From positions 224,001 through 288,000 of the forward strand of contig CAWJGT010000034.1 in NCBI GenBank assembly GCA_963842525.1: a stretch of DNA of 64,000 nt, in the 5' to 3' direction. The DNA comes from an uncultured Holophagales bacterium. GTDB taxonomy: Bacteria; Acidobacteriota; Thermoanaerobaculia; Multivoradales; UBA5704. Positions 1 through 60,756 of this stretch are shown here, in pieces (position 1 is the stretch's first letter; every line of letters starts with the position of its first letter). Under the pieces are notes generated by a model. That model saw nothing but the letters and a program-made list of their open reading frames with translations. It searched no databases and was not told the origin of the DNA. The position numbers and the translations under genes are program-made.

Positions 1-125
1 AGTCGGAGTACATCCCCCTGACGCCCGTCGAGCTCTCGGAAAGCCAAGCCACCGAGGTCCTGAGCCTCGTCGACCGGCTCGAGCAGGACGACGACGTCCA
101 GAAGGTCTTCCACAATCTTGGGTGA
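1..125 (+). CDS. yebC: YebC/PmpR family protein, C-terminal fragment (5' truncated by window)
   Basis: Frame from nt 3 reads [40 protein letters not shown]; LE.DDDVQ.V.HN is the characteristic YebC C-terminus. Confidence 0.85.
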
Positions 126-171
126 GCCGCACCCGCGGATGGGAGTACGATAGGGTCAAAGGGAGGCTTCG

Positions 172-440
172 ATGCCGAGCATCTACCGAGCCATTCTCTA
201 CGGAAACCGGCTCGAATGGAGCGAGGAGGAGCCGCAGAGGCTGCCTCCAGACCGCGGGGTGGAGGTCTTTGTAACGATCCCCGGCAAGCCGGATTCCACC
301 AGATCCGCCCGACAACGGGGTGCTGCCATGGCTGCTGCGCTGAGGGGCTCGCTGAAGCCGGAGGCCCGAAGAGCTTCGGGGACGCAGCCCAGTGGGAGCG
401 AGCGACGCGGGAGGAAAATCCCCCGACCGTGTCATCCTGA
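172..440 (+). pseudogene. Small hypothetical protein (~90 aa, antitoxin-like size) with an apparent frameshift near nt 340-350
   Basis: RBS GGAGG before ATG 172. MPSIYRAILYGNRLEW...RGAAMAAAL continues sensibly in another frame as LAEAGGPKSFGDAAQWERATREENPPTVSS* (stop 438-440). The 172..594 ORF instead runs into repeat DNA. Could be a sequencing indel in an intact gene. Confidence 0.5.
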
Positions 441-508
441 GCGAAGCGAAGGATCTGGGGGATGGGAAGCTCCGCCCGCCCAGATTCTTCGCTGCGCTCA
501 GAATGACA
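430..508. repeat. REP-like imperfect inverted repeat (30-bp arms)
   Basis: TGTCATCCTGAGCGAAGCGAAGGATCTGGG (430-459) pairs with CCCAGATTCTTCGCTGCGCTCAGAATGACA (479-508). Confidence 0.8.
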
Positions 509-540
509 GTCGTGGGCTCGCGCTGAAGGCTCCAACTGCG

Positions 541-596
541 TCCCCCCTCTCCCGGTCGGGGGGGAGGGAGATGGGAGAGGGGGACAGGGGGTGAGG
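541..596. repeat. Second REP-like G/C-skewed palindromic element
   Basis: TCCCCCCTCTCCC...GGGAGAGGGGGAC stem followed by AGGGGGTGAGG, a common extragenic repeat form. Confidence 0.6.
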
Positions 597-977: not shown

Positions 978-1111
978 TCTACTCCGCCGCGCACCTTACC
1001 TGGAGTGCTTGGCTCCGGCGTAAAGTGCCCCGCAATGGCGGATCGTGCCACCCAGTTCCACTGCTGATCACGCCGGAGTAAGATGAACGTAGTTCATAGA
1101 CGAGCTCTGCG

Positions 1112-4100
1112 GTGGCGAAATCAACCCTTCAGCATGATCGCGGCGGCCCCGTTAATCTGCGGGGCATCCACTATCAGCTCCTCGCAACATTCCGGGAGGT
1201 GGGTCGGGCCGTCCGCGTCGTGTCTCACGATGGTGAGAACGGCCCCCTTACCAGCGTGATGCTGGTTATTGAACCGTACGGAGGAGGCGACAGCGCGATT
1301 TCTCAGGGCGCCGCTCGCCGTGTCCAACAGATCAAGACTCATCAAGGAGTCTGGACCCTCGCCGAGCTCGCCAGGAGAGTTTTTCCAGATCTCTTCCGAG
1401 CCTACTGCAGCGACCCCGGAGCCGTCGCAGTCGAGCTGGTTACGAACGGCCGACTTGACACGCAGGCGCAGGGCTTTTGCGCGATGCTTGACGTAAGCTC
1501 CGAGGGGAGGGCGAAGGGCTGGGGAGGGCTGGAGCAGCACGCGGTTGAAGAAAATGACCTGCTCCCTTGGTTCAGGGGGGTAGCGCGGTCCACCAACAAG
1601 CCTGCCGCGAGGGCAACCTTCGCTGACCTAGTCGACTATCTTGCGAACAAGCTCCCTAAAATCGCCGCTGCCGAGCAACTCAACGAAGTTCCACATCGTG
1701 AGAGAGTCAAGGGCTTTCTGAGCCGATTAGCTCTGCGAACAGGGCTCTCCTTTGAGGATCAGGAGAATGAGTGTCGTGAGTTCTTGCAGGCTTGGGGCAT
1801 TTCACCCAAAGCCGTCCCTAGAGCCATTGACCAAGTCGTTGGTTACCTACTGCGCCGGGGCCACCCTGGTAATCAGGCAGTTACCTTCGGTGAGCTTGCG
1901 CTCACACTTGGTCTTGCAGACCGAGACCTCGGCGACTGGACCTTTTTGAGCACTCTGAGCTGCGACCGCCTCCTGACAGACCTTGCTCGCCCCCGACCCG
2001 CCTACCACGAAGATCAAGACGTTCGGCAGTCCGATCCTCTCGTACCTGAACTCTTGTGCCTCATATCTCGACCGAAGGCAGATCAGATCGTTGAATCGTT
2101 TGGCTCTCCCGCGCTCTCCAGTTATCAGCTCCGGCCGATCGTTATATGGGGCAAGAGTGGGATCGGCAAGACTTGGCTTCTCGCGCGCGCCGCCCACCGA
2201 CTCGCCCAGATCAAGCACTCGCCAACTTCGGCGGGGCCGGCAATATTGTGGATGTCTTCCCAGCAGGATCCTCAAGCCGATCTTCAAGCCGCGGCACAAA
2301 AGTTCTGCCATCGCATATGGGGGCGCGAGCAACCGCTTCCGGTGGAGCTCTTGGCAGATCGCGTAAGCCAGTCGACCGATAGCAGTCCGGTACCATGGCT
2401 CGTGGTCTTTATCGATGGGATACAGTCTCCCAACTATCTGGGCCGGCTCAGTGAAGTGCCTCACTCCGAGTTGGGCATTCTTCTAATCGTCGCTGTCACC
2501 GTGCAATTTGACAGTGACTCTCCAGAATTCCCCGGGCTGCGCCTCCTGAAAGCCCCGGGCTTTAATCCAGATGAGGTGCTTCGTTTTTTGGAACGCCGTG
2601 CTCCCATCTCGCGGGGGCTTCCACCCACCGACGTCCGCAAGCTACTCGAGACGCCCGTTTTTTTGGCATTCTACGCAGCCTTGAAGCACGATGGATCCAT
2701 CTGGCAGCCCGAGGACGAGTACGGACTGATTCAACACTTTTGGCTGGAGCGGATTGCGAGGCCGCGTCCGCAGGCGGCTGACGTATTGGCCAGGCTCTCC
2801 TGCACGCGAATGCGAGAGGCCACGGCTACCAGTGATCGACCTCCTCAGGGCCACCTCAACTGGACGGTGGCCGAGCTAAAGGAAGCCGGTCTTACGCAGG
2901 AGGATCTTGACTTACTTGAGGTTTCGGCGATCCTCGTTCGGGACACTTGGAGTCGCAGCTATTTCTTCGCTCACGAACGAATCCTGCAGTGGACTGCAGC
3001 CGAAGGAGCACTTCGCGCCTTTCAGGCTGGGGGATTCCAGGCGGAAGAGCTTGCCGAGATCTGCACCGCCATCCTGATCGGCGAGAGTCAGGCTCGATGG
3101 ATGTTCGGCTATATGCCCGCCGACCTGCTCTGGCTCCTCCTCGATCCCGACTTGCCGGAGACTTGCTGGTCGGCAGCCGAAGCTCTACTAGGTAGGCTTG
3201 AACGACATCACCATTTCTCAAGCCTGAAGGACTGGCTCTCCACACTCGGCCCACGCCTCGTTCCTCCACTTTTCAAGCGGCTTCGCTCTGCAGACCACAA
3301 GAATGCGGGCATCCTCTACACCTATCGAGATGCTCTCATGCAGATTCCGGGTGCCGACGTTGCGGAACGCGCCACCAAACTCCTCGCAGAACCTTCCCTA
3401 GAGCTCCAAGAGATCGGTGTGCAGCTGCTCGGAGGGAGGGAGTACCTCCCGGCCTTGGACACCCTCTGGAGTCTCTACCAGGAATGGTGGGCCGCAGCTC
3501 ACAGCGAGCGGCCTCCAAACTCGGAAACCCGCGAGGGCCCCTGGATGTACCACGTTGATATCGGGGAGACGGCCCTTCGGCGATCGGTACGCAACCGGCC
3601 GGAATGGTTGGAGCGTAAGCTCCTTGAAGCGGAGAGCCTTGGCGGTGCGAACTCAACCCTCCTCTTTTTGTTGGCTTCCACGCCAAAGGGCGAAGCCGTT
3701 TGGAAGCGCCACAAAGCGCTTCTTCGGGACCGTCTGGCGGAGGATCGGCAACGGGGATACATTCGTTGCATTATCTCTTTTCGGGATCTGGATGAACGCC
3801 CCTGGCTAGAAGGCAAAGTTAATGAGACTCGAGGCTTCGTCGCGCCTGCAGCTCGCGGTGCCCTTGCTCTTCTGGCTCCAGAAAGCGCCTTGGCTCAGGT
3901 CGATCCTGAGGCGTTATTTGATTTAGGTTCCACTCCCGGGTGGTGGCTGCCTCTGGTCCGCATTCAGAAGCCGAGAGAAACGGCTCGCTTCCTCAAGGAC
4001 TTGATTCTAGGCTCTGACAATCCGATCAAAGCTCTTTTCGCATTCAGCGGTTTCGAACTATGGTATCCACCCGAAGTCGTTGATTTCCTATTTGACACTG

Positions 4101-5869
4101 TCCAAAAGGAACTGACAGCTCTCAAAGAAGGTAGGGCCGAGTCCAGCAAGGACCTGTTATACGCACCTCTCTTGCGCCTGTCAGATTGCAACACGGTTGA
4201 GCAGCTCGAAATTTTTTGGAAGCCCAGCCACCAACAACTCGAATCTCAACTTGCGGACTGGCTGACTGACTGGGGCCCGAACGATACAGGTTGGGTACGA
4301 CGTGGCAGTGAGGAAGAGGCGGGCGAGGTGCTAAAGCTAATTGCTGGGCCCGGCATGGCTAAAGTAGGAGCGAGCATACTAGAACGGGCTGAGACCTGGA
4401 CGGGGGGCCGCGACGGTCTCTATTTGGCTGTCCGAGAACCGGATGCGGAAGCTCGAGCGGCGATCCGACGCAAGGCGCTCGATCCGACACTGTCTGCTTC
4501 ACCAAGAGCAACGCAGCATCCGATACTCCAGCGCTTCTGTTTAGAAGCTTTAGCCTATCTTCGGGATTTCGATGGATTTGCCTACGGCGTAGTGCAGTGG
4601 GGTCTCCTACTTCCTCCGAATCTTGCCACGTATCTCGATGATCATCGCGGGAAACCCGAGATGCTCAGAGTCGCCAAGGAGGCACTAAAAAAACACCCAG
4701 TTACGCCTGGTGCGTTTTTGTTGCTGGGCTTGCATGGCGGGACGGAGGCCCTCGACTGCCTCCGGACGCAGCGACCCAGCCTTGAATCTGCGGACCTACA
4801 ACTTGGCTGGATTATCGGTCTCGACTACTCCATAGATTGCTCCAGCGAAACGCTGGCTGTATTTGCACAAGGCTTAGAAAGTGCAGACGCCCGTATTCAA
4901 TTCTCCTCGTGGCAGGCCCTCCTGCGCCGGATCGAAAACCCCACAGCCCAGGAGCTGCTCTTGTCGGTGATCGATGGAGGCCAGAAGGACTCCGCGCGAC
5001 TCGCAGCCCATCTCCTTGATCAGGAGATACTTCAAAAGGCAGTAGCCGAGCGGCTCTGGCAAAGGGAACCGAAGGATACTTGGTTTCTTTACGACTTCGC
5101 CAACCAACTGGAGAAATTCGCCGTTCTCGGAACAGATGAGATAAAGGAATTCCTACTCAAGCACGCTACCGAAGCGCAGAACCCAATGACCCCAGCAGCA
5201 AGATATTCTGCAATCCGAGGTCTCGCCTCCTTAAATCGTGACCTCGCGTTTCGAGCAGCCCGTGCCTGTCGGCCGGGAAAGAGGAGCACGGAGGACATCA
5301 GTTGGCCAGCGCTGCTCGTGGAGGTTGGAGGCTCTAAAGCACTACCCGACCTTAAAGTGGAAATAGCTGAAGATCGCGACGTCGTTCGGCTTCATGCGCT
5401 GGGCGAGGCGCTACGAGCTCAGAAACAGCATCAGATTCTCCTATATTGGCTTCAGGATGAAAACCCAAGAGTCCGAGAAGGTGCCTGCTATGCCGCTTGC
5501 GCCCAAGCGTATGATCTTCAACTCGAACACACTGTGATTCGCTGTTGCCTCGACCCAGAAGAGGACGTGCGCACCGCAGCACAAGCTGCCTTCGATCACC
5601 TATGGAGGGATCGTGAGGTGGGCCGTTTGATTGACCGCCTCCACTCAGAGTCCCGTTCAGGCCGCCGCTGGGCTCTTCTCGACTCGGCGCTGGCTATCGG
5701 CTATCCAGGCGTTCGTCCCGGCTTTGGACAGATCTCGTGGTTCAGTGAGCTTATTAGCGGTCGACCTTACTACGAGGTTGATTACTCCATCAATCGGCTC
5801 AAAGAGCGCCGAAAGAAGGTTGTCGAGGAACTAAAGAGACAGTCCAAGAATTTCCGCGCGGATGCGTGA
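1112..5869 (+). CDS. Putative nuclease-STAND/NACHT NTPase-HEAT-like repeat protein (Avs-like antiphage defence candidate)
   Basis: 1585-aa ORF. N-terminal G..NLRGIHYQ...E....D........QQIK pattern resembles Cap4/DUF4297-type PD-(D/E)xK nucleases. Walker A GKSGIGKT, Walker B LVVFIDG, FAHERILQW winged-helix-like motif, and C-terminal HEAT-like repeats (DENPRVREGACYA, DPEEDVRTAAQAA). Visibly less GC-rich than its flanks. Confidence 0.75.
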   Translation: MAKSTLQHDRGGPVNLRGIHYQLLATFREVGRAVRVVSHDGENGPLTSVMLVIEPYGGGDSAISQGAARRVQQIKTHQGVWTLAELARRVFPDLFRAYCSDPGAVAVELVTNGRLDTQAQGFCAMLDVSSEGRAKGWGGLEQHAVEENDLLPWFRGVARSTNKPAARATFADLVDYLANKLPKIAAAEQLNEVPHRERVKGFLSRLALRTGLSFEDQENECREFLQAWGISPKAVPRAIDQVVGYLLRRGHPGNQAVTFGELALTLGLADRDLGDWTFLSTLSCDRLLTDLARPRPAYHEDQDVRQSDPLVPELLCLISRPKADQIVESFGSPALSSYQLRPIVIWGKSGIGKTWLLARAAHRLAQIKHSPTSAGPAILWMSSQQDPQADLQAAAQKFCHRIWGREQPLPVELLADRVSQSTDSSPVPWLVVFIDGIQSPNYLGRLSEVPHSELGILLIVAVTVQFDSDSPEFPGLRLLKAPGFNPDEVLRFLERRAPISRGLPPTDVRKLLETPVFLAFYAALKHDGSIWQPEDEYGLIQHFWLERIARPRPQAADVLARLSCTRMREATATSDRPPQGHLNWTVAELKEAGLTQEDLDLLEVSAILVRDTWSRSYFFAHERILQWTAAEGALRAFQAGGFQAEELAEICTAILIGESQARWMFGYMPADLLWLLLDPDLPETCWSAAEALLGRLERHHHFSSLKDWLSTLGPRLVPPLFKRLRSADHKNAGILYTYRDALMQIPGADVAERATKLLAEPSLELQEIGVQLLGGREYLPALDTLWSLYQEWWAAAHSERPPNSETREGPWMYHVDIGETALRRSVRNRPEWLERKLLEAESLGGANSTLLFLLASTPKGEAVWKRHKALLRDRLAEDRQRGYIRCIISFRDLDERPWLEGKVNETRGFVAPAARGALALLAPESALAQVDPEALFDLGSTPGWWLPLVRIQKPRETARFLKDLILGSDNPIKALFAFSGFELWYPPEVVDFLFDTVQKELTALKEGRAESSKDLLYAPLLRLSDCNTVEQLEIFWKPSHQQLESQLADWLTDWGPNDTGWVRRGSEEEAGEVLKLIAGPGMAKVGASILERAETWTGGRDGLYLAVREPDAEARAAIRRKALDPTLSASPRATQHPILQRFCLEALAYLRDFDGFAYGVVQWGLLLPPNLATYLDDHRGKPEMLRVAKEALKKHPVTPGAFLLLGLHGGTEALDCLRTQRPSLESADLQLGWIIGLDYSIDCSSETLAVFAQGLESADARIQFSSWQALLRRIENPTAQELLLSVIDGGQKDSARLAAHLLDQEILQKAVAERLWQREPKDTWFLYDFANQLEKFAVLGTDEIKEFLLKHATEAQNPMTPAARYSAIRGLASLNRDLAFRAARACRPGKRSTEDISWPALLVEVGGSKALPDLKVEIAEDRDVVRLHALGEALRAQKQHQILLYWLQDENPRVREGACYAACAQAYDLQLEHTVIRCCLDPEEDVRTAAQAAFDHLWRDREVGRLIDRLHSESRSGRRWALLDSALAIGYPGVRPGFGQISWFSELISGRPYYEVDYSINRLKERRKKVVEELKRQSKNFRADA

Positions 5870-5890
5870 GGGGGTGCCGCCCCGGATAGG

Positions 5891-6732
5891 GTAGAGTCGG
5901 CGGCGGGCGCGGTGTCTGTAGGCCGAGGGAGTAGCTGTGGCCGGCGGCTTTCGCCTACTCGCCGGTGCCTCGGTCTCGGCCGTGGCTCCGTTTCCCACCG
6001 CCGCTCATCGAACCGGACTTGCGGATCTCCCGCATCCGGCTCTCGGACGGGCTTCACAGCAGGGCATGCACGGGTGCCGTGGACTGTCTGGCCCCTCGCG
6101 ATCGAGACCTTGCGTTTCCCGCTTGGCCCTGCCATACAGCTTCTTCCGGAGGTACTCGACAAATTGGGTTCTAGCCTCACGGCAATGCCCTGTCTCTACC
6201 TCCCCTCAAGAGCGCACCCGAACCAGGGCTCCGTCCCTCCACCGGCATTACCCGGCTTCATCGGTACCATGGGCCCCTCCGACTTCCACACGGCCCGAGG
6301 CTGACCATTTCAAATCACCCCGGTTGGTGGCCGCGACCCACCACCTATGTGGATCTCACACGTTGCCTCAAAGACCTTGTCTGCGCATGCTGACCCCACT
6401 ACCCCGGCTGGAGAGGACGAGTTCTTCGGTCGGTTGCTCCCCCGCCCCCCGACGGCCTTCCCCTTATGGCAGGAGGGTCGGCTCCAGCGAGAAACTATCG
6501 AGGCCTGCTCAGGGTTCACGTGCTTTTCGGCCTGCGCATTTGCACCCCGGTTGCACCGAGGACTTCCCCGGAGGCTTCAGCCGGGCGATTGCTCAAGCTC
6601 AGCTGCTCCAGTGGCTACCGGGCGAACCGACAATTCCCCGGACGGGACTTCCACCCGCTGGCCTTCGAGACCCAGGAGGTCTCTCTGTAATCTGCAAACT
6701 CAGCTCACATCAGACCTCCCTTCGTGTCGCAC
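5891..6732 (-). mobile_element. Group II intron, ORF-less (intron-encoded protein almost entirely deleted), ~842 nt
   Basis: Minus strand starts GTGCGACACG (6732) and ends CCGACTCTAC (5891). Domain V reads GAGCCGGATGCGGGAGATCCGCAAGTCCGGTTC, followed by a long domain VI. A remnant VEYLRKKLYGRAKRE resembles an IEP N-terminus. No YADD motif. Confidence 0.88.
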
Positions 6733-6779
6733 TGCCAGGCGCTTATTTCAGCAATAGCAAATGGTGCGGTCGAGGGCTC

Positions 6780-7352
6780 CATGTGAGCGGGAGATCGACG
6801 ATGGTGACGCCGGCTCGACGATGGTGAGCGGGAGCCTCGACGCCAGTGACGGCGGGCTTGACTCCGGTAAGCGGGAGATCGACTCCAGTGATGGCGAGCT
6901 TAACTACCGTCAGCGGGAAATCGACGATCGTCACGGCGACTTCGACTCCCGTCAGCGGGAGCCTGACTGGAGTCACGGAGGCTTCGACGCCTGTCAGCGC
7001 GAGCCTGACTGGAGTCACGGAGACTTCGACTCCCGTCAGCGCGAGCTTGACTGGAGTCACGGCGACTTCGACTCCCGTCATCGTGAGCTTGCCTGGAGTC
7101 ACGGCGACTTCGACGCCCGTCATCGTGAGCTTGCCTGGAGTCACGGCGACCTCGACTCCCGTCAGCGCGAGCTTGACTGGAGTCACGGAGACTTCGACGC
7201 CCTTCAGTGCGAGGCTGACTGGAGTCACGGAGACTTCGACGCCGGTCAGCGCGAGCTTGACTGGAGTCACGGCGACTTCGACTCCCGTCATCGTGAGCTT
7301 GACTGGAGTCACGGAGACTTTGACTCCCGTCAGCGTGAGCCTGACTCCGGTG
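6780..7352. repeat. Tandem array of 21-bp units forming a 42-bp higher-order repeat
   Basis: Consensus GACTGGAGTCACGGMGACTTC-GACTCCCGTCAGCGCGAGCTT repeats about 10 times over ~6925-7352, with more degenerate 21-mers toward 6780. No unique spacers. Confidence 0.92.
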
Positions 7353-7390
7353 ATCCTGCGGTGTGCTGCAGGGGGGAAGGTGAGGGCCCC

Positions 7391-7422
7391 AAAAAAAGGG
7401 GCGTGGCTTGTGGCCACGCCCT
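7391..7422 (-). terminator. Rho-independent terminator of the minus-strand 8301-7447 operon
   Basis: Minus strand GGGCGTGGC-CACAA-GCCACGCCC-C-TTTTTTT, about 25 nt after the stop at 7447. Confidence 0.85.
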
Positions 7423-7446
7423 CATCGGAATCAGCGACCGAGGGGA

Positions 7447-7851
7447 TTACTCCTTCAGCGATGGTGCCGGCGGCTCCGCCGGGGCGGGGCTCGGCTTCAC
7501 CGGTTTGCCATCCACACCGACCAGCTTGAGCCGAGGCTGGCTGCGGAAGGGCTGCTGGCCGAACTCCACCAGCTTCTCCGACCGGGTGCCGTAATGCACC
7601 CGGATCCCGGCATCCACGAAGGTCATCAGCTTCTGCCCCTCGTTGTTGAGCTCAGCGAGACGCTTCGTGACCTCCTGTTTTGCCGCGGTCAGGCTCGCCT
7701 GCTTCGCGGTCAGATCCTTCAGCTCTGTCAGCACCGAGTTGACCTTTTGGCGTGTCACCTCCATCTGGGGCAGCTCCGCACTGTTTGCCTCCAGTGCCTG
7801 GCGTCGCAACTCCAGCTTCTTCTGAGTTACCGCAGTCGGTGAACCTGGCAT
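7447..7851 (-). CDS. Hypothetical coiled-coil protein (134 aa)
   Basis: Strong RBS AAAGGAGGAG before ATG 7851. Long amphipathic helices, then a YGTRSEKLVEFGQQPFR motif and a Pro-rich tail. Followed by a terminator. Confidence 0.85.
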   Translation of the reverse strand: MPGSPTAVTQKKLELRRQALEANSAELPQMEVTRQKVNSVLTELKDLTAKQASLTAAKQEVTKRLAELNNEGQKLMTFVDAGIRVHYGTRSEKLVEFGQQPFRSQPRLKLVGVDGKPVKPSPAPAEPPAPSLKE

Positions 7852-7881
7852 CAACTCCTCCTTTGGTGAACGCCGCCCGGC

Positions 7882-8301
7882 CTATCCGAGCTGCGCCGCG
7901 AGATCGAGCACTTCGTCGGTGAGGCCCTTGTCGGACCCCTTCGAGCGCCCGGTGAGGGCGATGATCACGGTCCCGCCGACCTGCGAAACCCGCAGGGGCT
8001 GACCCGCCTGGCGGGCGAGCAGCGACGCGAACGTCAGATACGAGGCCGCCACCAGCGGGTCCGCGAACTGCCGCACCCGGTCGATGGCCTTCCCTTCCGG
8101 CAGCATCTTCCAGCCCTGCATCCGCTTCAGGCGCGTCTGCACCCGCTCGGCCTTCAGCCGCTGCTCCGCCTGGTTCCGCGTCACGGCCAGCGCGGCGCCG
8201 ACGGTGTCGTCCTGACCCGTCACCCGCTTCCTCATCAGAGCCAGCGACTCTTCCTGCACCCGCTCCGCCTTCAGCTCCTGCTCGGCCTGGGTCGTCTCCA
8301 T
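7882..8301 (-). CDS. Pterin-4a-carbinolamine dehydratase (PCD/DCoH)-fold-like protein, catalytic histidines absent
   Basis: RBS GAGAGGAG before METTQ. LKRMQGWKML...IDRVRQF...GLTDEVLDLAAQL follows the PCD pattern, but the HHP motif is replaced by GQP. LKAERVQ occurs twice at the N-terminus. Confidence 0.65.
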   Translation of the reverse strand: METTQAEQELKAERVQEESLALMRKRVTGQDDTVGAALAVTRNQAEQRLKAERVQTRLKRMQGWKMLPEGKAIDRVRQFADPLVAASYLTFASLLARQAGQPLRVSQVGGTVIIALTGRSKGSDKGLTDEVLDLAAQLG

Positions 8302-8407
8302 ACCGTTTCTCCTCTCGGAAGCTCCGGCACCTGGAACGGCGCCGGAAGCGCTCACAGGAGAAGGATAGGCCAATAGAAGAGAAGAAGTCAACACCTAATT
8401 TTGGTAC

Positions 8408-8460
8408 ATCTTCGCCTGATGTGCGCTTATCTTCGCTTGACTCCGTTTTTGGTGTAGGAT
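8408..8460. promoter_or_regulatory. Divergent control region with a 12-bp direct repeat (candidate operator) and a -10-like hexamer
   Basis: ATCTTCGCCTGA (8408-8419) and ATCTTCGCTTGA (8429-8440) lie 21 bp apart. TAGGAT (8455-8460) lies 7 nt before ATG 8468, compatible with a leaderless regulator mRNA. Confidence 0.4.
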
Positions 8461-8857
8461 GGCCGGCATGGCACCCAGGCGGAAGGCACCCAAGCGGAAC
8501 TACACGGAAAAGGCCCATGCGCTGGCGGAACGGCTTCGCAGCGCTCTGAAGGCGGAAGTCCGGAGGCGAGACTTCCGCCAACTCGATCTCGAGCAGGCGC
8601 TGGGAAGGAGCCATGGCTACTTTTCCCACCTGTTCGGAGGGAGGCTGGCCCTGACCATGGAGGGTGTCCTCGAGGTCCTGCTGGCGCTCGACGCCGACCC
8701 CGCCGAGTTCTTCACCGCCGCGCTCGGGGCTGAGGAAGAAAGGAAGGGCGGGCCGAGCTCCGAGGAGATCGAGGCGACCGTCCTCCGCGCCTTGAGGCGG
8801 TACGGCTACGCCCCAGGAGGAGAAGCGGACGAAAAGAAGAGGCCAGGGCGGCCCTAG
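8459..8857 (+). CDS. XRE-like helix-turn-helix transcriptional regulator (start could be 8468)
   Basis: RQLDLEQALGRSHGYFSHLFGGRLALTMEGVLEVLLALDADPAEFF matches the XRE/Cro HTH pattern; divergent from the PCD-like gene. Confidence 0.8.
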   Translation: MAGMAPRRKAPKRNYTEKAHALAERLRSALKAEVRRRDFRQLDLEQALGRSHGYFSHLFGGRLALTMEGVLEVLLALDADPAEFFTAALGAEEERKGGPSSEEIEATVLRALRRYGYAPGGEADEKKRPGRP

Positions 8858-9858
8858 ACTGCCCAGAATTTCCGCTGCGCGTACAGGAGCCGGCTCAGCT
8901 CGCACAGCAGATCGAGGTCGGGCTGCGAAGAAGCCAGGATCCTGTTCAGCAGCCGAACCTCCTGGGAGTCCTCGGGAATGCCGATCTGGGCCAGGATGGG
9001 ACCCACCAGAGCAACTTCCGCCCGCGCCTCGAGCGGGCTTGACGTCAAGAGGTGCCGCGCCAAGTCGAGAGAGATCAGCGCGCCTTCCTGAAGCATCTTC
9101 TCCGCGGCGCAGCGTTCCCTGACCTCGACAAACGCGGCACGCGCCGACTCTTCGCCGAGCGCACCGGCGATCCGCGCGAGAATCCACTCCACCCTGACCT
9201 TGGCACGAATTGCCCCTTGTGCAAGGAAAGAGCGAGAATGCTGCAAGACCCGAAGGGCCTCCGCCGGGCGGCCCGAGTTGGCCAGGTAAAGCGCCAGGTT
9301 CTGGAGCGCTGATCGCAAAAGCTCCTCGCCCTTGGCTGAAGATGAGTGGTCTGCGAGTGTTTCGACGGCGCCCAGCGCGACCCTCCAAGCATCATCCGGT
9401 CTTTCAGACTGGTCGAGGATCATGGCGTTCAGCAGCAAGATCGACGAGTGGGCAAGAGGGTCTGCCTGCTTACACTGAAGGGCGGCAGCTTGAGAGAGAG
9501 CTTCGGAAGCTCTCTCTAGCCTGTGCAGGTCGTACAGGAGTGAAGCCTTGAACTCGAAAAGGCGGGGCTCCACTGTGCAGAGAGCCAGTGCCCTGTTCAG
9601 ATGAGCCTCGGCGCTCGTGAATTCTCCCATGACCCTGTGGGCGTTGCCCGCGTATCCATAAAGCCGAGCCGCCGTGTGCGCGTCGGTTTCCGGAGGAAGA
9701 CCGACCAGGGCGGCATCGCACCAGGCCCGCATCGCGGCAGGATCACGGTACCGCAGGGCAAACCCGTGCTCAGCCAGAGAGAGGCGTTCCCCCGCCGTCC
9801 CCGGCTGGTTGCGAAAGTAGAGAGCTGCAGCTTCAGGGTCTCGGAAGCGCAATTTCAT
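8854..9858 (-). CDS. Tetratricopeptide-repeat-like all-helical protein (334 aa)
   Basis: TPR-like helices, e.g. YAGNAHRVMGEFTSAEAHLNRALAL and LQNLALYLANSGRPAEALRVL. Stop codon overlaps the HTH stop (convergent genes). Confidence 0.8.
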   Translation of the reverse strand: MKLRFRDPEAAALYFRNQPGTAGERLSLAEHGFALRYRDPAAMRAWCDAALVGLPPETDAHTAARLYGYAGNAHRVMGEFTSAEAHLNRALALCTVEPRLFEFKASLLYDLHRLERASEALSQAAALQCKQADPLAHSSILLLNAMILDQSERPDDAWRVALGAVETLADHSSSAKGEELLRSALQNLALYLANSGRPAEALRVLQHSRSFLAQGAIRAKVRVEWILARIAGALGEESARAAFVEVRERCAAEKMLQEGALISLDLARHLLTSSPLEARAEVALVGPILAQIGIPEDSQEVRLLNRILASSQPDLDLLCELSRLLYAQRKFWAV

Positions 9859-9926
9859 CCCCTCTTAACTTCGGAAAGCAGCGAGCGGGATGATAACGCG
9901 ACGACGCTGCAAGGGGAAGCTTCGGC

Positions 9927-10223
9927 TTACGCCCCGCCTGGGCACCCATTGGGGTCAAGTGAGCATCGACCATCGCCCAATGACTCGGGCGCGGGCTGGG
10001 CCGGTGCCGGCGCCCCGTGCGGGCACCCGTCGGGGTCGATGGTGCAGCGACCATCGACATGCAAGTTGAACCAGGCGGCGACGTCACCCCAGATGCTGGC
10101 GAGCCAATCGAACGCCGAAGCCTGATCAGCGCTACGGATCTCTCTTTCCTGGGCGGCAACGGCCACCGGCATGCACGCCAGCAAAATCGCGACCGCACTC
10201 GCGGTCAGTACTTTCCGGAACAT
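9927..10223 (-). CDS. Small secreted peptide precursor with two DGRCxxDPxGCP motifs
   Basis: RBS GAGGAGG before MFRKVLTASAVAILLACMPVAVAA (Sec-type signal peptide). Mature part contains DGRCTIDPDGCPHG and DGRCSLDPNGCPGGA*. Confidence 0.8.
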   Translation of the reverse strand: MFRKVLTASAVAILLACMPVAVAAQEREIRSADQASAFDWLASIWGDVAAWFNLHVDGRCTIDPDGCPHGAPAPAQPAPESLGDGRCSLDPNGCPGGA

Positions 10224-10396
10224 CTGAAACCTCCTCGAAGACGTAGCCAGCGCCGCCAGCATGGCGGGCGGGCGATACCGCGGATGTCGGAACTCGGGTA
10301 AAGGAACGTCTGCGGGAGAAATTCTACACCCTGTCCTGTGCCCTGGGTCAACCCCCCGGGCCGCCGGCGCAACGCTCCGAAAAAGTTGGGGGGCCC

Positions 10397-10864
10397 TCAG
10401 GACGGTTTGGGCAGCCGTTCCAGCCGGGTCCTGTAGACGGGATTGCGCTCGAAGATCAGCTCGAGGTCGTGGCTCCCGATCCGGAGGTGGTCCACGGTGA
10501 TGACCGCCGCGCCCAGCCAGGCGCCGCCGTGCTCGCCGCAGACCCAGCGGTCGATCCGGTGCCCCGCTTGAGCGTAGGGAAGACCGGAGCGAGCCGGTCG
10601 AACATCTCCTCGGACAGGAGGGCCGGGAACCCCGATCCGGACTGGTACCGCGGATCGACGATGATCGGGCACATCTGGCAGCGCAGGTTGCAGCGCGCCG
10701 CCACCTCGATGTAGGCCTCCAGCGGCCGCGCGGACAGCGTCGCCTGCCCCGCCGCGTACTCGCGGTCGAGCTGCAGGATGTTGGTCCACCGGGCCGGGTC
10801 CATCTGGTGCATGAAATCCTTCTACGCCTGCGGAGGGGGAGGCGTCCAGCGGCGTCTATCCTAC
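10397..10864 (-). pseudogene. Radical SAM gene remnant, copy 2 (internal deletion with frameshift)
   Basis: MHQMDPARW...PLEAYIEVAARCNLRCQMCP (CxxxCxxC)...FPTLKR is fused out of frame to the C-terminal HRIDRWVCGEHGG...RLERLPKPS*. Most of the barrel is missing. Confidence 0.8.
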
Positions 10865-10877
10865 CCGGTCGGTCCGC

Positions 10878-12140
10878 TCAGGGCGAATCCAGCACGGTCT
10901 GCACGTCGTCCCCCACGACGTCCTCGACGTAGAGGAGCTTGACCGCGACCATGACCGCGGCGAGGAAGGGAACGGCGACCAGCATGCCGAGGAAGCCGAA
11001 GACGACTCCCATGAGGGCCAGGCCGAGCAGGGTCAGAACAGGCGGCAGGTCGAGCCCCTCGTTCATCAGCAGGGGGATCAGGACGTGGTTCTCCAGGAAC
11101 TGGATCGCGATGTAGGCGAGGGCCACCAGGAGGGCCTTCTGGGGCGAATCGAGCAGCCCCATCGCCACCGCGGGGATGGCGGAGAGCAGCGGACCCACCA
11201 TGGGCACGAACTCCAGCAGGCCGGCGAGGATGCCGAGCGCAAAGGCTGCCTTGACTCCGATCAGCTTCAGGGCGATGGTGGTCACGACACCGATCACCAC
11301 CATGGCGATGAGCTGGGTGACCAGCCAGCGGCGCAGGGTGATGCCGATGGCGGTCAGCACCTCGGCCGCGCGGGGCCGCGCGCGGTGCGGGACCAGGTGC
11401 AGCAGGCCCCGGTAGTAGAGCTGCGGATTGGACGCGATGTAGATGGTCAGGAAGATGATCAGGATCACCCCGGTGACCACCGCCACGGTCGACGACAGGA
11501 ACGAGAACAGATAGCGAGTGACCGCTCCCAACTGGCCGGAGAGGGTCTCGGGCAGATTCGAGAGCTGGCCCGACGGCTGTGCTCCCTGGTCCGCGGGAGG
11601 CTCCTCCCCGGCCGCAGGACCGCCAGGCCCCGGGGCTGCGGACTGGCGCTGCGCAGGCGAAGCCGGAGCCTGCTGCGGGCCGGCCGGTTGGCCGGAATCG
11701 AGGGGCAGCATGCGACCCAGGAAGCCGTCCTGGTGACGGTACATCCAGGCCTCCACCTTGCCGATCGCCTGGGGCACGGCCGTGCGCAGCTCCCTGAGCT
11801 GTGCGCCGAACGTCGGTCCCGCCCAGGCGCCCAGGCCGACGAGGAGCCCCAGAAACGCCAGGACGATCAGCGTCGCTCCGATCCCGCGCCGGATCCGCCA
11901 CCGTTCCAGGTATTCCGCCCCGCGCGCCACGGGCAGCGCGAAGAGCACGCCGAGGAACGAAAGGAAGAGCAAGGGATAGACGAGCCAGAGCAGCCGGGCC
12001 GTGAGATAGACCGCCAACACCAGCGCCGCGGCGCGCAGCACGTCGGCGCTCCGCCACCCCGACATCCGAGCAAGCGCCTGCGCGCTCCGCGGGGGCGCCG
12101 CGGGCGTACGTGCCTGGGGCACACCGAGATCGATCGCCAT
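10878..12140 (-). CDS. AI-2E family transporter
   Basis: 420 aa with multiple TM segments; family motifs LEFVPMVGP and QFLENHVLIPLLM...LPP. Confidence 0.92.
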   Translation of the reverse strand: MAIDLGVPQARTPAAPPRSAQALARMSGWRSADVLRAAALVLAVYLTARLLWLVYPLLFLSFLGVLFALPVARGAEYLERWRIRRGIGATLIVLAFLGLLVGLGAWAGPTFGAQLRELRTAVPQAIGKVEAWMYRHQDGFLGRMLPLDSGQPAGPQQAPASPAQRQSAAPGPGGPAAGEEPPADQGAQPSGQLSNLPETLSGQLGAVTRYLFSFLSSTVAVVTGVILIIFLTIYIASNPQLYYRGLLHLVPHRARPRAAEVLTAIGITLRRWLVTQLIAMVVIGVVTTIALKLIGVKAAFALGILAGLLEFVPMVGPLLSAIPAVAMGLLDSPQKALLVALAYIAIQFLENHVLIPLLMNEGLDLPPVLTLLGLALMGVVFGFLGMLVAVPFLAAVMVAVKLLYVEDVVGDDVQTVLDSP

Positions 12141-12356
12141 ACCGTTCTGACAAGCAAAGGAGATGCCGGCGGTTCCGCGCCTGCCACCACCGCGCCGGCG
12201 CGAACGCAGTCGGGATCTGCCGGGGAAGGGTGGCCAGGGGCGGTTGTCACGAATCCCCTGCTCTCTGCACTAGAGGTATTGAGGCCATGGCGGGCTCGTG
12301 AAGCCGCAGCGACGGCGCTCGGCGCGGGACTTGATTCGGTTCGAGGGGCTTTAGCG

Positions 12357-13169
12357 ATGTTGCAAGATAACGAAGTCGAGATCTACCATCGAGACGGATT
12401 CCTATTCGTCCCGGCCTGTTTCTCCGAGGCCGAGGTGAATGTCTTGCGGGCGGCACGCGATGCGGAGCTGGCCCAGGAGTCGGAACGCCGCGTCAACGAG
12501 AAGAACGGCAAGGCCGTGCGTTCCGTGTATGGCTCTCACAGGACCAACGAGGTGTTCGATCGCCTGGCGCGGCACCCGCGCCTGCTCAACCCCGCGCGCC
12601 AGATCCTGGGGAGCGAGGTCTATGTCTACCAGTTCAAGATCAACGCCAAGGTCGGTTTGGAAGGAGATGTCTGGCAGTGGCACCAGGATTATGTGTTCTG
12701 GCTCCGCGAGGACGGCCTTCCCGCTCCGCAGCTCGTCAATGTGGTCGTCTATCTGGACGAGGTCAACGAGTTCAACGGCCCGATGATCCTGATCCCGGGA
12801 TCCCAGGGAGGGGACGTCATCGAGGTCGATCCGTTGCAGGACAAGCCCGCTCCCTATGCGGACAAGCCCGACTGGATCTCGAATCTCACGGCCGACCTCA
12901 AGTATTCGATTGACAAGGAGACTTTAGCCCGGCTGCTCCGCCAGCGCAGCATGGTGGCTCCCAAGGGGCCTGCCGGATCTGTCCTGCTCTTCCATCCCAA
13001 CCTGGTGCATGGATCGGCCCAGAACATGTCCCCCTTCGACCGGACGATCGCGATCGTCAGCTACAGCCGTGTGGACAACATCCCCCAGCGGGAGGTCCGG
13101 CCGGAGTTCCTGGTGAGCCGCGACCACCGGCCGCTCGAGCCGGTGCCCGATAACGCGCTGACCGCCTGA
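12357..13169 (+). CDS. Fe(II)/2-oxoglutarate dioxygenase, PhyH family; probable L-proline 4-hydroxylase
   Basis: MLQDNEVEIYHRDG...VYVYQFKINAK...WQWHQDYVFWLREDG (HxD)...HGSAQNMSPFDR...RPEFL. From recall it closely resembles actinobacterial proline trans-4-hydroxylase. True start is ATG 12357, not 11085. Confidence 0.85.
   Translation: MLQDNEVEIYHRDGFLFVPACFSEAEVNVLRAARDAELAQESERRVNEKNGKAVRSVYGSHRTNEVFDRLARHPRLLNPARQILGSEVYVYQFKINAKVGLEGDVWQWHQDYVFWLREDGLPAPQLVNVVVYLDEVNEFNGPMILIPGSQGGDVIEVDPLQDKPAPYADKPDWISNLTADLKYSIDKETLARLLRQRSMVAPKGPAGSVLLFHPNLVHGSAQNMSPFDRTIAIVSYSRVDNIPQREVRPEFLVSRDHRPLEPVPDNALTA

Positions 13170-13340: not shown

Positions 13341-60756
<47,416 letters not shown>

What the first reader, a model, noticed from the sequence alone, without database searches (positions are those of the whole stretch)
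7447..10223. Five-gene cassette: secreted CxxDPxGC peptide + TPR protein + XRE HTH regulator controlling a divergent two-gene operon (candidate undescribed peptide-signalling system)
Seen: a signal-peptide ORF with two DGRCxxDPxGCP motifs is co-oriented with, and directly upstream of, a TPR-like gene. That gene converges on an HTH gene, which is divergent from a PCD-fold/coiled-coil operon ending in a terminator. Established: RRNPP/arbitrium systems pair a secreted pro-peptide with a TPR receptor and an HTH output. Inference: this could be an analogous split system (separate TPR and HTH) using disulfide-looped peptides. The gene set matches no system I can name.
Basis: partly seen in the sequence, partly recalled or inferred. 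Interest (0 to 1): 0.85.

Follow-up and report, generated by a model that had tools for sequence, protein, structure and literature searches.

The report
Secreted-peptide, TPR and HTH regulator cassette
A soil Acidobacteriota genome carries about sixty copies of a gene pair, a small secreted peptide beside a TPR protein, that looks like the peptide pheromone-and-receptor systems known so far only from Gram-positive bacteria.

Summary
All five genes are real and lie as described. The order peptide>TPR> <HTH PCD-like>coiled-coil> recurs at 6 loci in 3 genomes. The trio peptide-TPR-HTH recurs at 2 to 3 more, one beside a mobile-element replication module.

The larger result is that this peptide is one of about 60-70 paralogues in a 9.95 Mb Acidobacteriota (Thermoanaerobaculia-like) genome. 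Each has a Sec-type signal peptide, an LWxxLxxxW helix and 1-4 repeats of CxxDPxG(x)C or Cys-less xxDPNG.
- 53 of 60 lie within 2.5 kb of a homologous TPR gene, against 5.9% for random positions.
- Many partners are XRE-HTH+TPR fusions; the window's TPR aligns to their TPR domain at hhalign probability 99.5%.
- The pairing holds for 24 of 25 peptides in seven other genomes.

No Pfam, NCBIfam, PHROG or PADLOC model matches the peptide, and my literature searches found no description.

Best reading (0.45): peptide-signal/cytoplasmic-receptor modules with RRNPP logic. The window's variant is split like Rap-Phr-Rco of plasmid pLS20: a TPR-only receptor, a separate XRE-like repressor and a divergent target operon. 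Sequence membership in RRNPP was tested and not met, and binding and signalling are unproven. The main rival (0.3) is that the peptides are regulated secreted cargo, not ligands.

The parts
10321..10351 (-). Promoter-like element upstream of the peptide gene: TTGACC (10351-10346), 19-nt spacer, TAGAAT (10326-10321).
   Evidence: Read from the sequence. The consensus scan did not call it because the spacer exceeds its 16-18 nt rule. Inference only.
9927..10223 (-). Propeptide gene, 98 aa: Sec-type signal peptide, W-rich helix FDWLASIWGDVAAWF, and two C-x-x-D-P-x-G-C units (CTIDPDGC, CSLDPNGC).
   Evidence: Family profile: 66 matches in the own genome; 3194 clusters at E<=1e-3 in the global library. 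No Pfam, NCBIfam, PHROG or PADLOC match.
8854..9858 (-). TPR-only protein, 334 aa: three N-terminal helices followed by a TPR superhelix. Candidate cytoplasmic peptide receptor or anti-repressor.
   Evidence: Pfam TPR_2 1.7e-7. About 50 orthologues at 58-83% identity, most about 330-335 aa, listed range 185-374. AF2 pLDDT 92.5. VIA second look: LGN Z 22-23, RapI Z 21.2, RapH Z 20.3, NprR Z 18.6. hhalign to HTH-TPR paralogues 99.5%.
8459..8857 (+). Small XRE-like HTH protein, 132 aa, with a conserved C-terminal helix (EIEATVLRALRRYG). Convergent on the TPR gene with a 4-bp overlap.
   Evidence: The convergent position is kept in L069-L074 and L041.
8302..8458 (.). Divergent control region.
- TTGACT (8391-8386) and TATCCT (8367-8362) face the PCD-like gene.
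- 12-bp direct repeats at 8408-8419 and 8429-8440.
- GC-rich inverted repeat CCGGCGCC/GGTGCCGG at 8345-8324, in the leader.
   Evidence: Promoter scan, repeats. The TTGAC..TATCCT boxes and a GC hairpin before the RBS align in window, L070, L071 and L074. Operator function is inferred.
7882..8301 (-). PCD/DCoH-fold-like protein, 139 aa, with an N-terminal duplicated AEQxLKAERVQ segment. The His-His-Pro site is not conserved.
   Evidence: Pterin_4a 9.8e-6 at the cut-off. In the alignment to PCD 2ebb, the chain's 'nhhp' lies opposite the query's 'gqp' (E 0.31, weak). 5 other matches in the own genome.
7447..7851 (-). Coiled-coil protein, 134 aa, member of a 46-ORF family in this genome.
   Evidence: No Pfam match. 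Atlas neighbours are unnamed Acidobacteriota clusters.
7399..7421 (-). Intrinsic-terminator-like hairpin (9 pairs, 8 G-C) followed by a T-run.
6783..7346 (.). 42-bp tandem array (about 10-13 copies) built of about 21-bp GTCA...TGAC palindromic sub-units, directly downstream of the coiled-coil gene.
   Evidence: 24 of 46 coiled-coil ORFs have such an array within 800 bp downstream.

Best explanation
The cassette is one variant of a lineage-specific, heavily expanded family of peptide-signal/cytoplasmic-receptor modules that work like RRNPP quorum-sensing systems.

Proposed steps (all steps after gene organisation and homology are inferred):
1. The 98-aa precursor is exported by Sec.
2. One or more short peptides around the C-x-x-D-P-x-G-C loops are released, possibly disulfide-closed outside the cell.
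3. At high density the peptide re-enters the cell and binds the concave face of the cognate TPR protein.
4. In most paralogues the receptor carries its own XRE HTH. In the window's subfamily it is TPR-only, with three N-terminal helices plus TPRs as in Rap proteins.
5. The TPR-only receptor acts on the separate, convergently encoded XRE-like repressor. The model is Rap(pLS20), which sequesters the repressor Rco until the Phr peptide releases it.
6. The repressor controls the conserved TTGAC-N18-TATCCT promoter of the divergent PCD-like/coiled-coil operon. In one relative the divergent genes are instead the early replication genes of a mobile element.
For: Family and linkage in the own genome:
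- 70 six-frame ORFs match the peptide; 66 match with profile A1.
- In 60 unique precursors, 60 have a hydrophobic h-region, 58 have K/R before it and 58 have small-x-small after it.
- 53 of 60 have a homologous TPR gene (E<1e-40) within 2.5 kb, against 5.9% of 20,000 random positions. HTH genes: 26 of 60 against 3.2%.

Linkage in other genomes:
- 24 of 25 peptide ORFs in 20 loci of 7 other genomes have a TPR-family hit within 2.5 kb.

Receptor architecture:
- 10 of 18 partner proteins scanned carry HTH_3/HTH_31 plus TPR.
- The window's TPR is homologous to their TPR domain (hhalign 99.5%, E 6.5e-23, 254 columns).
- The partner's N-terminal module varies (HTH, an H..C..C motif, or three helices) while peptide and TPR stay constant. 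RRNPP receptors are described the same way, with divergent N-terminal domains (PMC7430634 abstract).

Signs that peptide identity matters:
- Repeats within one precursor are more alike than repeats between precursors: 0.503 against 0.255 identity at 7 variable positions, 0 of 2000 permutations reach this.
- 20 of 60 precursors end exactly at the G of the last DPxG. Known Phr peptides are cut from the C-terminus (PMC7430634 introduction), and tandem pheromone copies occur in Phr propeptides (PMC11343458 abstract).
- Peptide and partner-TPR distances correlate (Mantel r 0.327, 0 of 2000 permutations), and 17 of 53 pairs share the same nearest neighbour.

Fit to known systems:
- The pair fits the published RRNPP signature: 334 aa within 250-500, 98 aa within 10-100, 68 bp within -60..400 (PMC10075063 section 15).
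- Rap and NprR are the best bacterial structural matches (Z 18-21).
- Cassette synteny holds down to about 40% TPR identity, and the promoter is conserved.
- In L069 the trio abuts an XRE gene, an O-like initiator, DnaC, DnaB and a resolvase.
- Three OppA-type SBP_bac_5 genes exist in the genome.
Against: - No sequence-level link to any RRNPP subfamily. Pfam and NCBIfam give only generic TPR families. The PDB profile search with A2 returns only generic TPRs among 59 hits. A5 reaches PlcR only through its HTH domain (E 7.8e-4).
- Eukaryotic LGN/Pins TPRs score higher than Rap in both fold searches, so the fold does not discriminate.
- The organism is a diderm. An exported peptide would have to cross the outer membrane twice, and no processing protease or dedicated importer is linked to the modules.
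- The precursors (about 80-130 aa) are long for RRNPP propeptides and carry a conserved W-rich helix that has no counterpart there.
- Linked genes duplicating together would give the Mantel correlation without any binding.
- Intragenic duplication alone could explain the within-precursor similarity.
- The HTH assignment of the window protein is below Pfam's cut-off.
- The PCD-like/coiled-coil 'output' is absent in L069 and L072.
- No expression data could be found.
Confidence: 0.45

Rival explanations
1. Regulated cargo. The small secreted DPxG-repeat proteins are the products, not the ligands. They would act outside the cytoplasm, for example as antimicrobial, adhesive or ion-binding beta-hairpin mini-proteins. 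Each has a dedicated cytoplasmic TPR or HTH-TPR regulator that senses some other cue.
For: - The linkage statistics are explained equally well by regulator-target pairs.
- The precursors are long and share a conserved helix plus turn-forming DPxG units.
- The same repeat occurs about 40 times in 731-783 aa secreted proteins (P0024, P0086), which suggests a structural or extracellular role.
- No importer or protease is linked to the modules.
Against: - A one-to-one dedicated regulator for about 60 tiny secreted proteins would be unusual.
- The variable positions are kept alike within a precursor but differ between paralogues, and 20 of 60 precursors end exactly at DPxG. Both fit specific recognition of short units.
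- The N-terminal output module of the partner is swapped (HTH, H..C..C motif, none) while the TPR stays. That is the pattern of a ligand-binding domain.
Confidence: 0.3
2. Cytoplasmic chaperone or holdase. The TPR protein binds the unexported precursor, for instance its LWxxLxxxW helix, to control its export or stability, in the manner of TPR chaperones of secretion systems. The HTH reports on chaperone occupancy.
For: - The most conserved part of the family outside DPxG is the amphipathic W-rich helix.
- The partner has no signal peptide, while the peptide must pass through the cytoplasm first.
- TPR chaperone plus regulator feedback loops are known from type III secretion (recalled, not checked here).
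Against: - Sec substrates of this size do not normally need dedicated chaperones.
- Partners of 330-540 aa, often with a DNA-binding domain, are much larger than known TPR secretion chaperones.
- There is no secretion-system context at any locus examined.
Confidence: 0.1
3. RiPP precursor. The repeated Cys-containing units are core peptides modified by a nearby radical-SAM or other maturase.
For: - A 118-aa ORF upstream (10456-10812, same strand) contains CNLRCQMC, a CxxxCxxC pattern.
- Multi-core precursors are typical of some RiPP classes (recalled, not checked here).
Against: - That ORF has no Pfam match at E<=0.001 and looks truncated.
- None of the five profiles used on L070-L074 marks a conserved gene upstream of the peptide there; the upstream hits are further TPR and peptide genes. 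In L069 the only ORF of 70 aa or more on that side, 677-1231, was not scanned against any family library.
- The precursors carry Sec signal peptides rather than leader peptides.
- 39 of 60 lack the Cys pattern.
Confidence: 0.03
4. No functional unit. The five genes are neighbours by accident, or some are miscalled ORFs in a high-GC genome.
For: High-GC DNA gives many spurious long ORFs. The HTH and PCD assignments are weak.
Against: - All five have RBS-like sequences and conserved orthologues.
- The same order and orientation recur at 6 loci down to about 40% identity.
- There is strong enrichment over random positions.
Confidence: 0.02

Closest known systems
RRNPP/RRNPPA peptide quorum-sensing systems of Bacillota (Rap-Phr, NprR-NprX, PlcR-PapR, PrgX, Rgg-SHP, AimR-AimP)
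   Same: - An adjacent pair of a small Sec-exported propeptide gene and a cytoplasmic TPR receptor gene.
- Lengths and spacing fall inside the published detection signature (PMC10075063, section 15).
- The receptor's N-terminal module varies (HTH or not).
- Many diversified paralogues per genome.
- Tandem copies of the presumed mature unit within propeptides (PMC11343458 abstract).
- Overall fold similarity to Rap and NprR (Z 18-21).
   Different: - No detectable sequence homology to any RRNPP subfamily.
- The host is a Gram-negative phylum, Acidobacteriota.
- Precursors are two to three times longer, with a conserved W-rich helix.
- The presumed units are DPxG turns, often bracketed by two Cys.
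- The scale is far larger: about 60 per genome.
- Ligand binding and re-import are not shown.
Rap-Phr-Rco switch of Bacillus plasmid pLS20 (PMC7430634: abstract and passages read)
   Same: - A TPR receptor without a DNA-binding domain, plus a secreted peptide, plus a separate HTH repressor.
- There, the repressor blocks the promoter of a target operon, Rap relieves repression by binding Rco, and the peptide releases Rco.
- The window has the same three parts and a divergent operon with a conserved promoter.
- In L069 the target side is a mobile-element replication module.
   Different: - The TPR-HTH interaction was not tested here.
- The HTH gene is convergent with and overlaps the TPR gene.
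- The target in the window is a PCD-like/coiled-coil pair of unknown function, not conjugation genes.
- There is no sequence homology.
Arbitrium (AimR-AimP-AimX) and ICEBs1 RapI-PhrI-ImmR control of mobile elements (recalled, apart from mentions in PMC9765709 passages)
   Same: A peptide plus TPR receptor placed beside the repressor/early-gene switch of a mobile element, as in locus L069 (XRE, O-like initiator, DnaC, DnaB, resolvase).
   Different: - Only 1 of the 9 loci of this subfamily shows such a context.
- No relatives were found in IMG/VR viral contigs with two alignment queries.
- Most copies are chromosomal tandem arrays.
Pterin-4a-carbinolamine dehydratase / DCoH (PF01329)
   Same: The C-terminal 90 residues of the 7882-8301 product match the family at exactly the Pfam cut-off.
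   Different: - The position aligned to the 'hhp' of PCD 2ebb reads 'gqp'.
- There is an N-terminal coiled extension with a duplicated AEQxLKAERVQ segment.
- It is probably a non-enzymatic binding module.

Membership tests
RRNPP(A) quorum-sensing systems | Receptor of 250-500 aa with TPR-type repeats (signature in PMC10075063, section 15) | tested here: met
   334 aa; TPR_2 E 1.7e-7; AF2 all-helical superhelix, pLDDT 92.5.
RRNPP(A) quorum-sensing systems | Adjacent small ORF of 10-100 aa, -60 to 400 bp from the receptor gene | tested here: met
   98 aa, 68-bp gap, same strand. Many paralogues exceed 100 aa.
RRNPP(A) quorum-sensing systems | Propeptide carries a Sec signal peptide | tested here: met
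   Own heuristic, not SignalP: 60 of 60 have an h-region, 58 of 60 have K/R before it, 58 of 60 have small-x-small after it. The window sequence reads MFRK-h-region-AVAA|QE.
RRNPP(A) quorum-sensing systems | Receptor homologous in sequence to a known subfamily (Rap, NprR, PlcR, PrgX, Rgg, AimR and others) | tested here: not met
   Only generic TPR families in Pfam and NCBIfam. PDB profile search with A2: 59 hits, all generic TPR. A5 hits PlcR only over its HTH domain, E 7.8e-4.
RRNPP(A) quorum-sensing systems | Receptor fold like solved RRNPP receptors | tested here: inconclusive
   RapI Z 21.2 (rmsd 3.9 over 264), RapH 20.3, RapF 18.8-18.9, NprR 18.6. LGN/Pins score 22-23, and repeat proteins give high Z in general.
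RRNPP(A) quorum-sensing systems | Mature peptide is re-imported and binds the receptor, changing its output | not testable with these tools
   Needs binding and reporter assays. OppA-type genes exist, 3 matches to PF00496, which permits import but does not show it.
RRNPP(A) quorum-sensing systems | Occurrence in Bacillota and their mobile elements, as the family is described | tested here: not met
   Relatives are named Acidobacteriota or Thermoanaerobaculia. Found in 24 of 24 genomes of the same family and 7 of 16 of other families of the order.
Rap-Phr-Rco type split switch (pLS20) | TPR receptor lacking a DNA-binding domain, with a separate HTH repressor gene and a repressed operon nearby | tested here: met
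   Gene content and order at 6 loci; promoter conserved towards the PCD-like gene. The HTH assignment is weak.
Rap-Phr-Rco type split switch (pLS20) | Direct binding of receptor to repressor, released by the peptide | not tested
Needs pull-down or SEC.
Pterin-4a-carbinolamine dehydratase (PF01329) | Match to the family profile above the curated cut-off | tested here: inconclusive
   26.0 bits against a cut-off of 26. All NCBIfam equivalogs are far below their cut-offs.
Pterin-4a-carbinolamine dehydratase (PF01329) | Catalytic His-His-Pro motif (its role is recalled; its position is taken from the 2ebb alignment) | tested here: not met
   The query's 'gqp' lies opposite the chain's 'hhp' in the phmmer alignment to 2ebb (E 0.31, so the alignment itself is weak).
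RiPP precursor with radical-SAM maturase | Conserved maturase gene next to the precursor | tested here: not met
   The upstream ORF with CxxxCxxC has no Pfam match. No conserved upstream gene was marked in L070-L074 by the five profiles used; the ORF upstream of the peptide in L069 (677-1231) was not scanned.

The most novel reading that the evidence does not exclude
Acidobacteriota of this order run a peptide-pheromone language of their own. It would be the first cytoplasmic-receptor peptide quorum-sensing superfamily in a Gram-negative phylum, evolved independently of, or beyond recognisable homology to, RRNPP.
- Dozens of orthogonal channels per cell (about 60 here).
- Signals are disulfide-stapled C-x-x-D-P-x-G-x-C hairpins or linear x-x-D-P-N-G peptides cut from multi-copy precursors.
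- Receptors have an interchangeable output module: an XRE HTH, an H..C..C zinc-finger-like domain, or a Rap-like helical bundle acting on a separate repressor.
Probability: 0.35. Interest if true: 0.9.

Novelty: new variant of a known kind. Interest (0 to 1): 0.78.

Why it matters
Peptide signalling through re-imported pheromones and cytoplasmic TPR receptors is treated in the literature I read as a trait of Bacillota and their mobile elements. Gram-negative quorum sensing is described there as small-molecule based (PMC10075063 introduction).

A family that meets the same genomic signature in soil Acidobacteriota would widen that picture. Acidobacteriota are abundant, hard to culture and poorly understood.
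- It would give a handle on their social behaviour.
- It would offer a large natural set of presumably orthogonal peptide-receptor pairs for specificity studies and synthetic circuits.
- It would define a sizeable unannotated protein family: at least 3194 clusters at 50% identity at E<=1e-3, 879 of them at E<=1e-10.

Even under the rival reading, the DPxG-repeat secreted mini-proteins and their dedicated TPR regulators are an undescribed, lineage-defining gene family.

Tried and rejected
- Complex prediction of TPR (A2) with peptide residues 26-98 (A3): verdict 'no answer', ipSAE 0.02 and 0.01, controls not run. This counts neither for nor against binding.
- Expression: no RNA holder was listed for window 7400-10300. 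Only three soil-metagenome DNA runs hold 0.05 of the sampled words.
- The search for related loci with the divergent peptide alignment A1 failed for lack of a conserved stretch. The single TPR protein then gave one locus.
- Viral contigs: no relative of A2 or A5. The search is pattern-seeded and of limited reach.
- PHROGs and PADLOC: nothing for four of the window's five proteins. The coiled-coil protein gave only weak coiled-coil noise: a transposase and an unnamed family in PHROGs at E 0.004-0.005, and LmuB and PDC-S06 in PADLOC at E 6e-4 to 1e-3. A defence-system reading was dropped.
- RiPP/radical-SAM reading: rejected (plus the lack of a conserved upstream gene in L070-L074).
- Lipoprotein reading of 'LLAC' in the window peptide: the Cys is not conserved in paralogues.
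- Zinc-finger anti-sigma (zf-HC2) identity of the N-terminal H..L..HLLxxCxxC motif of the same-strand partners: no Pfam match even at E<=10 for four N-termini. The resemblance is recalled only.
- Protein Atlas: the nearest clusters for the peptide and the coiled-coil protein are unnamed Acidobacteriota clusters.
- Literature, nothing relevant found:
  - 'Acidobacteria'+'RRNPP': 0 papers.
  - 'RRNPPA'+'Acidobacteriota': 0 papers.
  - 'Acidobacteriota'+'quorum sensing'+'peptide'+'tetratricopeptide': 3 papers held, 2 listed, judged unrelated from titles and abstract openings.
  - 'Thermoanaerobaculia'+'tetratricopeptide': 1 paper, judged unrelated from title and abstract opening.
  - IDPNG/IDPDG/LDPNG: 31 papers held, 15 listed, none on bacteria or peptide signalling by title and abstract opening.
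  - Subscription journals and preprint supplements were not searchable.

Full report
**1.
The ORF list and the minus-strand sequence show five genes.
- A 98-aa ORF at 9927-10223(-) follows GAGGAGG. It has a signal-peptide-like N-terminus and the two motifs DGRCTIDPDGCP and DGRCSLDPNGCP.
- A 334-aa TPR gene at 8854-9858(-) lies 68 bp downstream on the same strand.
- A 132-aa gene at 8459-8857(+) converges on the TPR gene with a 4-bp overlap.
- Across a 157-bp gap, diverging from the 132-aa gene, lie a 139-aa gene at 7882-8301(-) and a 134-aa coiled-coil gene at 7447-7851(-).
- The coiled-coil gene ends at a strong terminator-like hairpin, 7421-7399.

Pfam gives TPR_2 (1.7e-7) for the TPR protein, HTH_31 (0.016, weak) for the 132-aa protein, Pterin_4a (9.8e-6, exactly at the cut-off) for the 139-aa protein, and nothing for the peptide or the coiled-coil protein. 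NCBIfam, PHROGs and PADLOC add nothing useful.

The HTH call is firmer at profile level. HTH_31 is found in 5 of 7 orthologues (best E 0.0015, all under the cut-off). ClgR, C.BclI and HigA are the best PDB sequence matches.

**2. The peptide belongs to a very large family.**
Searching the window's own genome gave 21 peptide-like places with one protein. The genome is 9.95 Mb in 34 contigs, GC 0.678, and the window is C34:224001-288000. Iterative search over six-frame ORFs gave 70 hits, and the family profile A1 gave 66.
- I dropped 7 of the 70 ORFs for lack of a start codon or hydrophobic core. These are C25_404385, C6_228589, C31_16410, C9_431294, C9_431825, C3_385552 and C3_382160.
- I also dropped 3 exact duplicates at contig ends. 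That leaves 60 unique precursors.
- All 60 have a hydrophobic h-region, 58 have K/R before it and 58 have a small-x-small site after it.
- After the signal peptide comes a helix of the type LWxxLxxxW, then 1-4 units ending in [DE]PxG. By the looser [DEGNT]PxG pattern, 17 have one unit, 20 have two, 20 have three and 2 have four, in 59 of 60.
- 21 of 60 have C..DPxG(x)C. The rest have Cys-less units such as GHTIDPNG.
- 20 of 60 end exactly at the G of the last unit.

**3. The invariant partner is a homologous TPR protein.**
- 65 of 70 ORFs have a TPR-family hit within 3 kb.
- With the stricter set (124 ORFs at E<1e-40), 53 of 60 have one within 2.5 kb, against 5.9% of 20,000 random positions.
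- For HTH genes the figures are 26 of 60 against 3.2%; for PCD-like, 6 of 60 against 0.4%; for coiled-coil, 6 of 60 against 2.1%.

Two main layouts appear.
- Cys-type peptides mostly have opposite-strand partners: 17 of 21 opposite, 4 same-strand.
- Cys-less peptides have a same-strand partner: 32 of 39 same-strand, 7 with none found.

I scanned 18 of the 32 partner ORFs listed against Pfam. Ten carry HTH_3/HTH_31 plus TPR and are 482-588 aa long. Eight have TPR only.

The same-strand partners share an N-terminal motif H..L..(F/L)L.G.L...HLLxxCxxC. It reminded me of zinc-binding anti-sigma domains, but it has no Pfam match even at E<=10.

The window's 334-aa protein is a third type, with three short N-terminal helices followed by the TPR superhelix. 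Its TPR region aligns with that of the HTH-TPR fusions at hhalign probability 99.5%, E 6.5e-23, over 254 columns. The partners are therefore one family with swapped N-terminal modules.

**4. Distribution.**
- A close TPR homologue lies on a record titled 'MAG: Acidobacteriota bacterium'.
- NCBI names for a TPR orthologue and a peptide homologue read 'hypothetical protein [Thermoanaerobaculia bacterium]'.
- The peptide profile matches 24 of 24 other genomes of the same taxonomic family, with 5-54 matches each. It matches 7 of 16 genomes of other families of the order.
- It matches 0 of 200 genomes sampled across the rest of the phylum at E<=1e-5. Only 24 candidates per genome were scored there, and the own genome gave 26 instead of 66, so sensitivity was lower.
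- Against 1.84 billion cluster representatives the profile finds 3194 proteins at E<=1e-3 and 879 at E<=1e-10. These include two 731-783 aa proteins with dozens of xDPNG(R/K) repeats.
- In 20 loci taken from seven other genomes (five genera of the same family and one other family), 24 of 25 peptide ORFs have a TPR-family hit (E<1e-30) within 2.5 kb.

**5. The five-gene cassette is conserved.**
Close homologues of the window's TPR (E<=1e-50) occur in 4 of 91 other genomes of the family. I fetched five such loci, and L069 was the sixth. Profile searches and ORF reading give these results.
- The order peptide>TPR> <HTH PCD-like>coiled-coil> is found in L070 and L073 (genome G001), L071 and L074 (G005), and on the own contig C14.
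- With the window that makes 6 loci in 3 genomes of one genus, with TPR identity down to about 40%.
- L072 (G003) has only peptide-TPR-HTH. There the HTH follows a copper ATPase, a CsoR-like gene and an oxidase on the same strand.
- L069 (another genus, 65% TPR identity) also has the trio. Its HTH is divergent from an XRE gene, an O-like replication initiator, a DnaC-like loader, DnaB and a resolvase. This is a mobile-element early region.

The intergenic regions of window, L070, L071 and L074 share TTGAC-N18/19-TATCCT boxes facing the PCD-like gene and a GC-rich hairpin before its RBS. The window also has 12-bp direct repeats 21 bp apart at 8408-8440.

**6. Signs that peptide identity matters.**
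- At seven variable positions, units within one precursor are 0.503 identical against 0.255 between precursors. None of 2000 shuffles reaches this.
- Peptide and partner distances correlate (Mantel r 0.327, 0 of 2000). In 17 of 53 pairs the nearest peptide and the nearest TPR belong to the same other module.

Both results are also expected from modules duplicating as linked units and from intragenic duplication. They show co-inheritance, not binding.

**7. Structure.**
- The TPR model (pLDDT 92.5) matches LGN/Pins best (Foldseek E 7.6e-6; VIA Z 22-23).
- Next come RapI (Z 21.2, rmsd 3.9 over 264), RapH (20.3), RapF (18.8-18.9), NprR (18.6) and RapJ (18.4).
- The HTH-TPR paralogue model (pLDDT 84.5) likewise lists RapJ at rank 19, RapF at rank 42 and PlcR at rank 44.
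- Sequence profiles find no RRNPP protein, except PlcR through its HTH domain.

The fold is compatible with an RRNPP-like receptor but does not prove it. Sequence membership is not met.

**8. Mechanism.**
The only known scheme that couples a Sec-exported small peptide to a neighbouring cytoplasmic TPR regulator is the RRNPP one. The pair meets the published detection signature (PMC10075063, section 15 read).

The split layout of the window matches Rap-Phr-Rco of pLS20. There, the TPR-only Rap binds the repressor Rco and relieves repression, and the imported C-terminal pentapeptide releases Rco (PMC7430634, abstract and passages read). I therefore propose four steps:
1. The peptide is exported and processed.
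2. The peptide is re-imported. Three OppA-type genes exist in the genome.
3. The peptide binds the TPR protein and changes its hold on the XRE-like repressor.
4. That changes transcription from the conserved promoter of the PCD-like/coiled-coil operon.

Gene order, homology and conservation are shown. Everything else is inferred.

The function of the output operon is unknown. The PCD-like protein has 'gqp' where PCD 2ebb has 'hhp' (a weak alignment), so it is probably a binding module rather than an enzyme.

**9. Weaknesses.**
- There is no binding evidence, and no expression data could be found.
- The cell envelope is diderm, and no protease or importer is linked to the modules.
- The precursors are long and carry a conserved helix that the RRNPP scheme does not explain.
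- The main rival, at 0.3, is that the peptides are regulated secreted cargo. It is supported by the occurrence of the same repeat in large secreted proteins.

**10. Novelty.**
No family library names the peptide. Public names are 'hypothetical protein'. Five literature searches found no description. The RRNPP papers I read treat the system as one of Bacillota. I rate this a new variant of a known kind of system, in a new phylum and at an unusual scale.

Noticed in passing
window 6783-7346 and 7447-7851; genome-wide in G000: The coiled-coil gene belongs to a family of 46 six-frame ORF hits. 24 of the 46 have a tandem array (period >=20, >=3 copies, >=120 bp) within 800 bp downstream. The genome has only 239 such arrays, so I estimate about 3% by chance. 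The arrays are built of about 19-21 bp palindromic sub-units. The printed unit holds the core GATAAGCTTATC in eight arrays. This looks like a protein with its own array of binding sites, or a REP-like element. Two copies lie near IS200/RAYT-like ORFs.
   Followed up: partly
G000 paralogous loci, e.g. L049, L050, L056, L057: Same-strand TPR partners of Cys-less peptides share an N-terminal motif H..L..fL.G.L....HLLxxCxxC. It resembles zinc-binding anti-sigma domains by recall, but has no Pfam match at E<=10.
   Followed up: partly
L069 3374-7992 (record JAXDKG010000043.1): Next to the orthologous peptide-TPR-HTH trio lies a mobile-element module: an XRE gene, an O-like replication initiator, a DnaC-like loader, a DnaB helicase and a serine recombinase.
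   Followed up: partly
P0024, P0086 (metagenome proteins): Proteins of 783 and 731 aa with a signal peptide and dozens of xDPNG(R/K) units between globular ends. The same repeat is used in large secreted proteins.
   Followed up: no
window 1112-5869 (+): A 1585-aa ORF with a weak P-loop/NACHT/STAND NTPase match around residues 318-415 and C-terminal HEAT repeats. It converges on the cassette and has no PADLOC match.
   Followed up: no
window 10456-10812 (-) and 10397-10789 (-): Two overlapping short ORFs just upstream of the peptide gene. One contains CNLRCQMC (a CxxxCxxC pattern). Neither has a Pfam match. This may be a radical-SAM gene remnant.
   Followed up: partly
window 10878-12140 (-): An AI-2E family transporter (PF01594, E 1.3e-51) on the same strand upstream of the peptide gene. 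None of the five profiles marks a gene in that position at the orthologous loci L070-L074, but the transporter family itself was not searched for there.
   Followed up: no
window 12300-13169 (+): A PhyH (phytanoyl-CoA dioxygenase family) domain, E 3.3e-36.
   Followed up: no
window 1-13000 versus 13500-20000: GC is 0.55-0.69 over the first 13 kb, against 0.73-0.75 beyond. The genome mean is 0.678. Giant ORFs of 3835 and 3863 aa start at 13341 and 28068 and were not examined.
   Followed up: no
window 8854-8857; L069 3013-3016: The stop codons of the convergent TPR and HTH genes overlap by 4 bp in the window and in L069. In L070 they abut within a few bases. This suggests coupled or interfering transcription.
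   Followed up: no
G000 C9:427000-438500, C14:50900-59500, C3:382100-385900: Peptide-TPR modules often stand in tandem runs of 3-6. In other genomes the unit HTH-TPR(+) with a convergent peptide(-) about 60 bp downstream repeats, for example in L075 and L082.
   Followed up: partly
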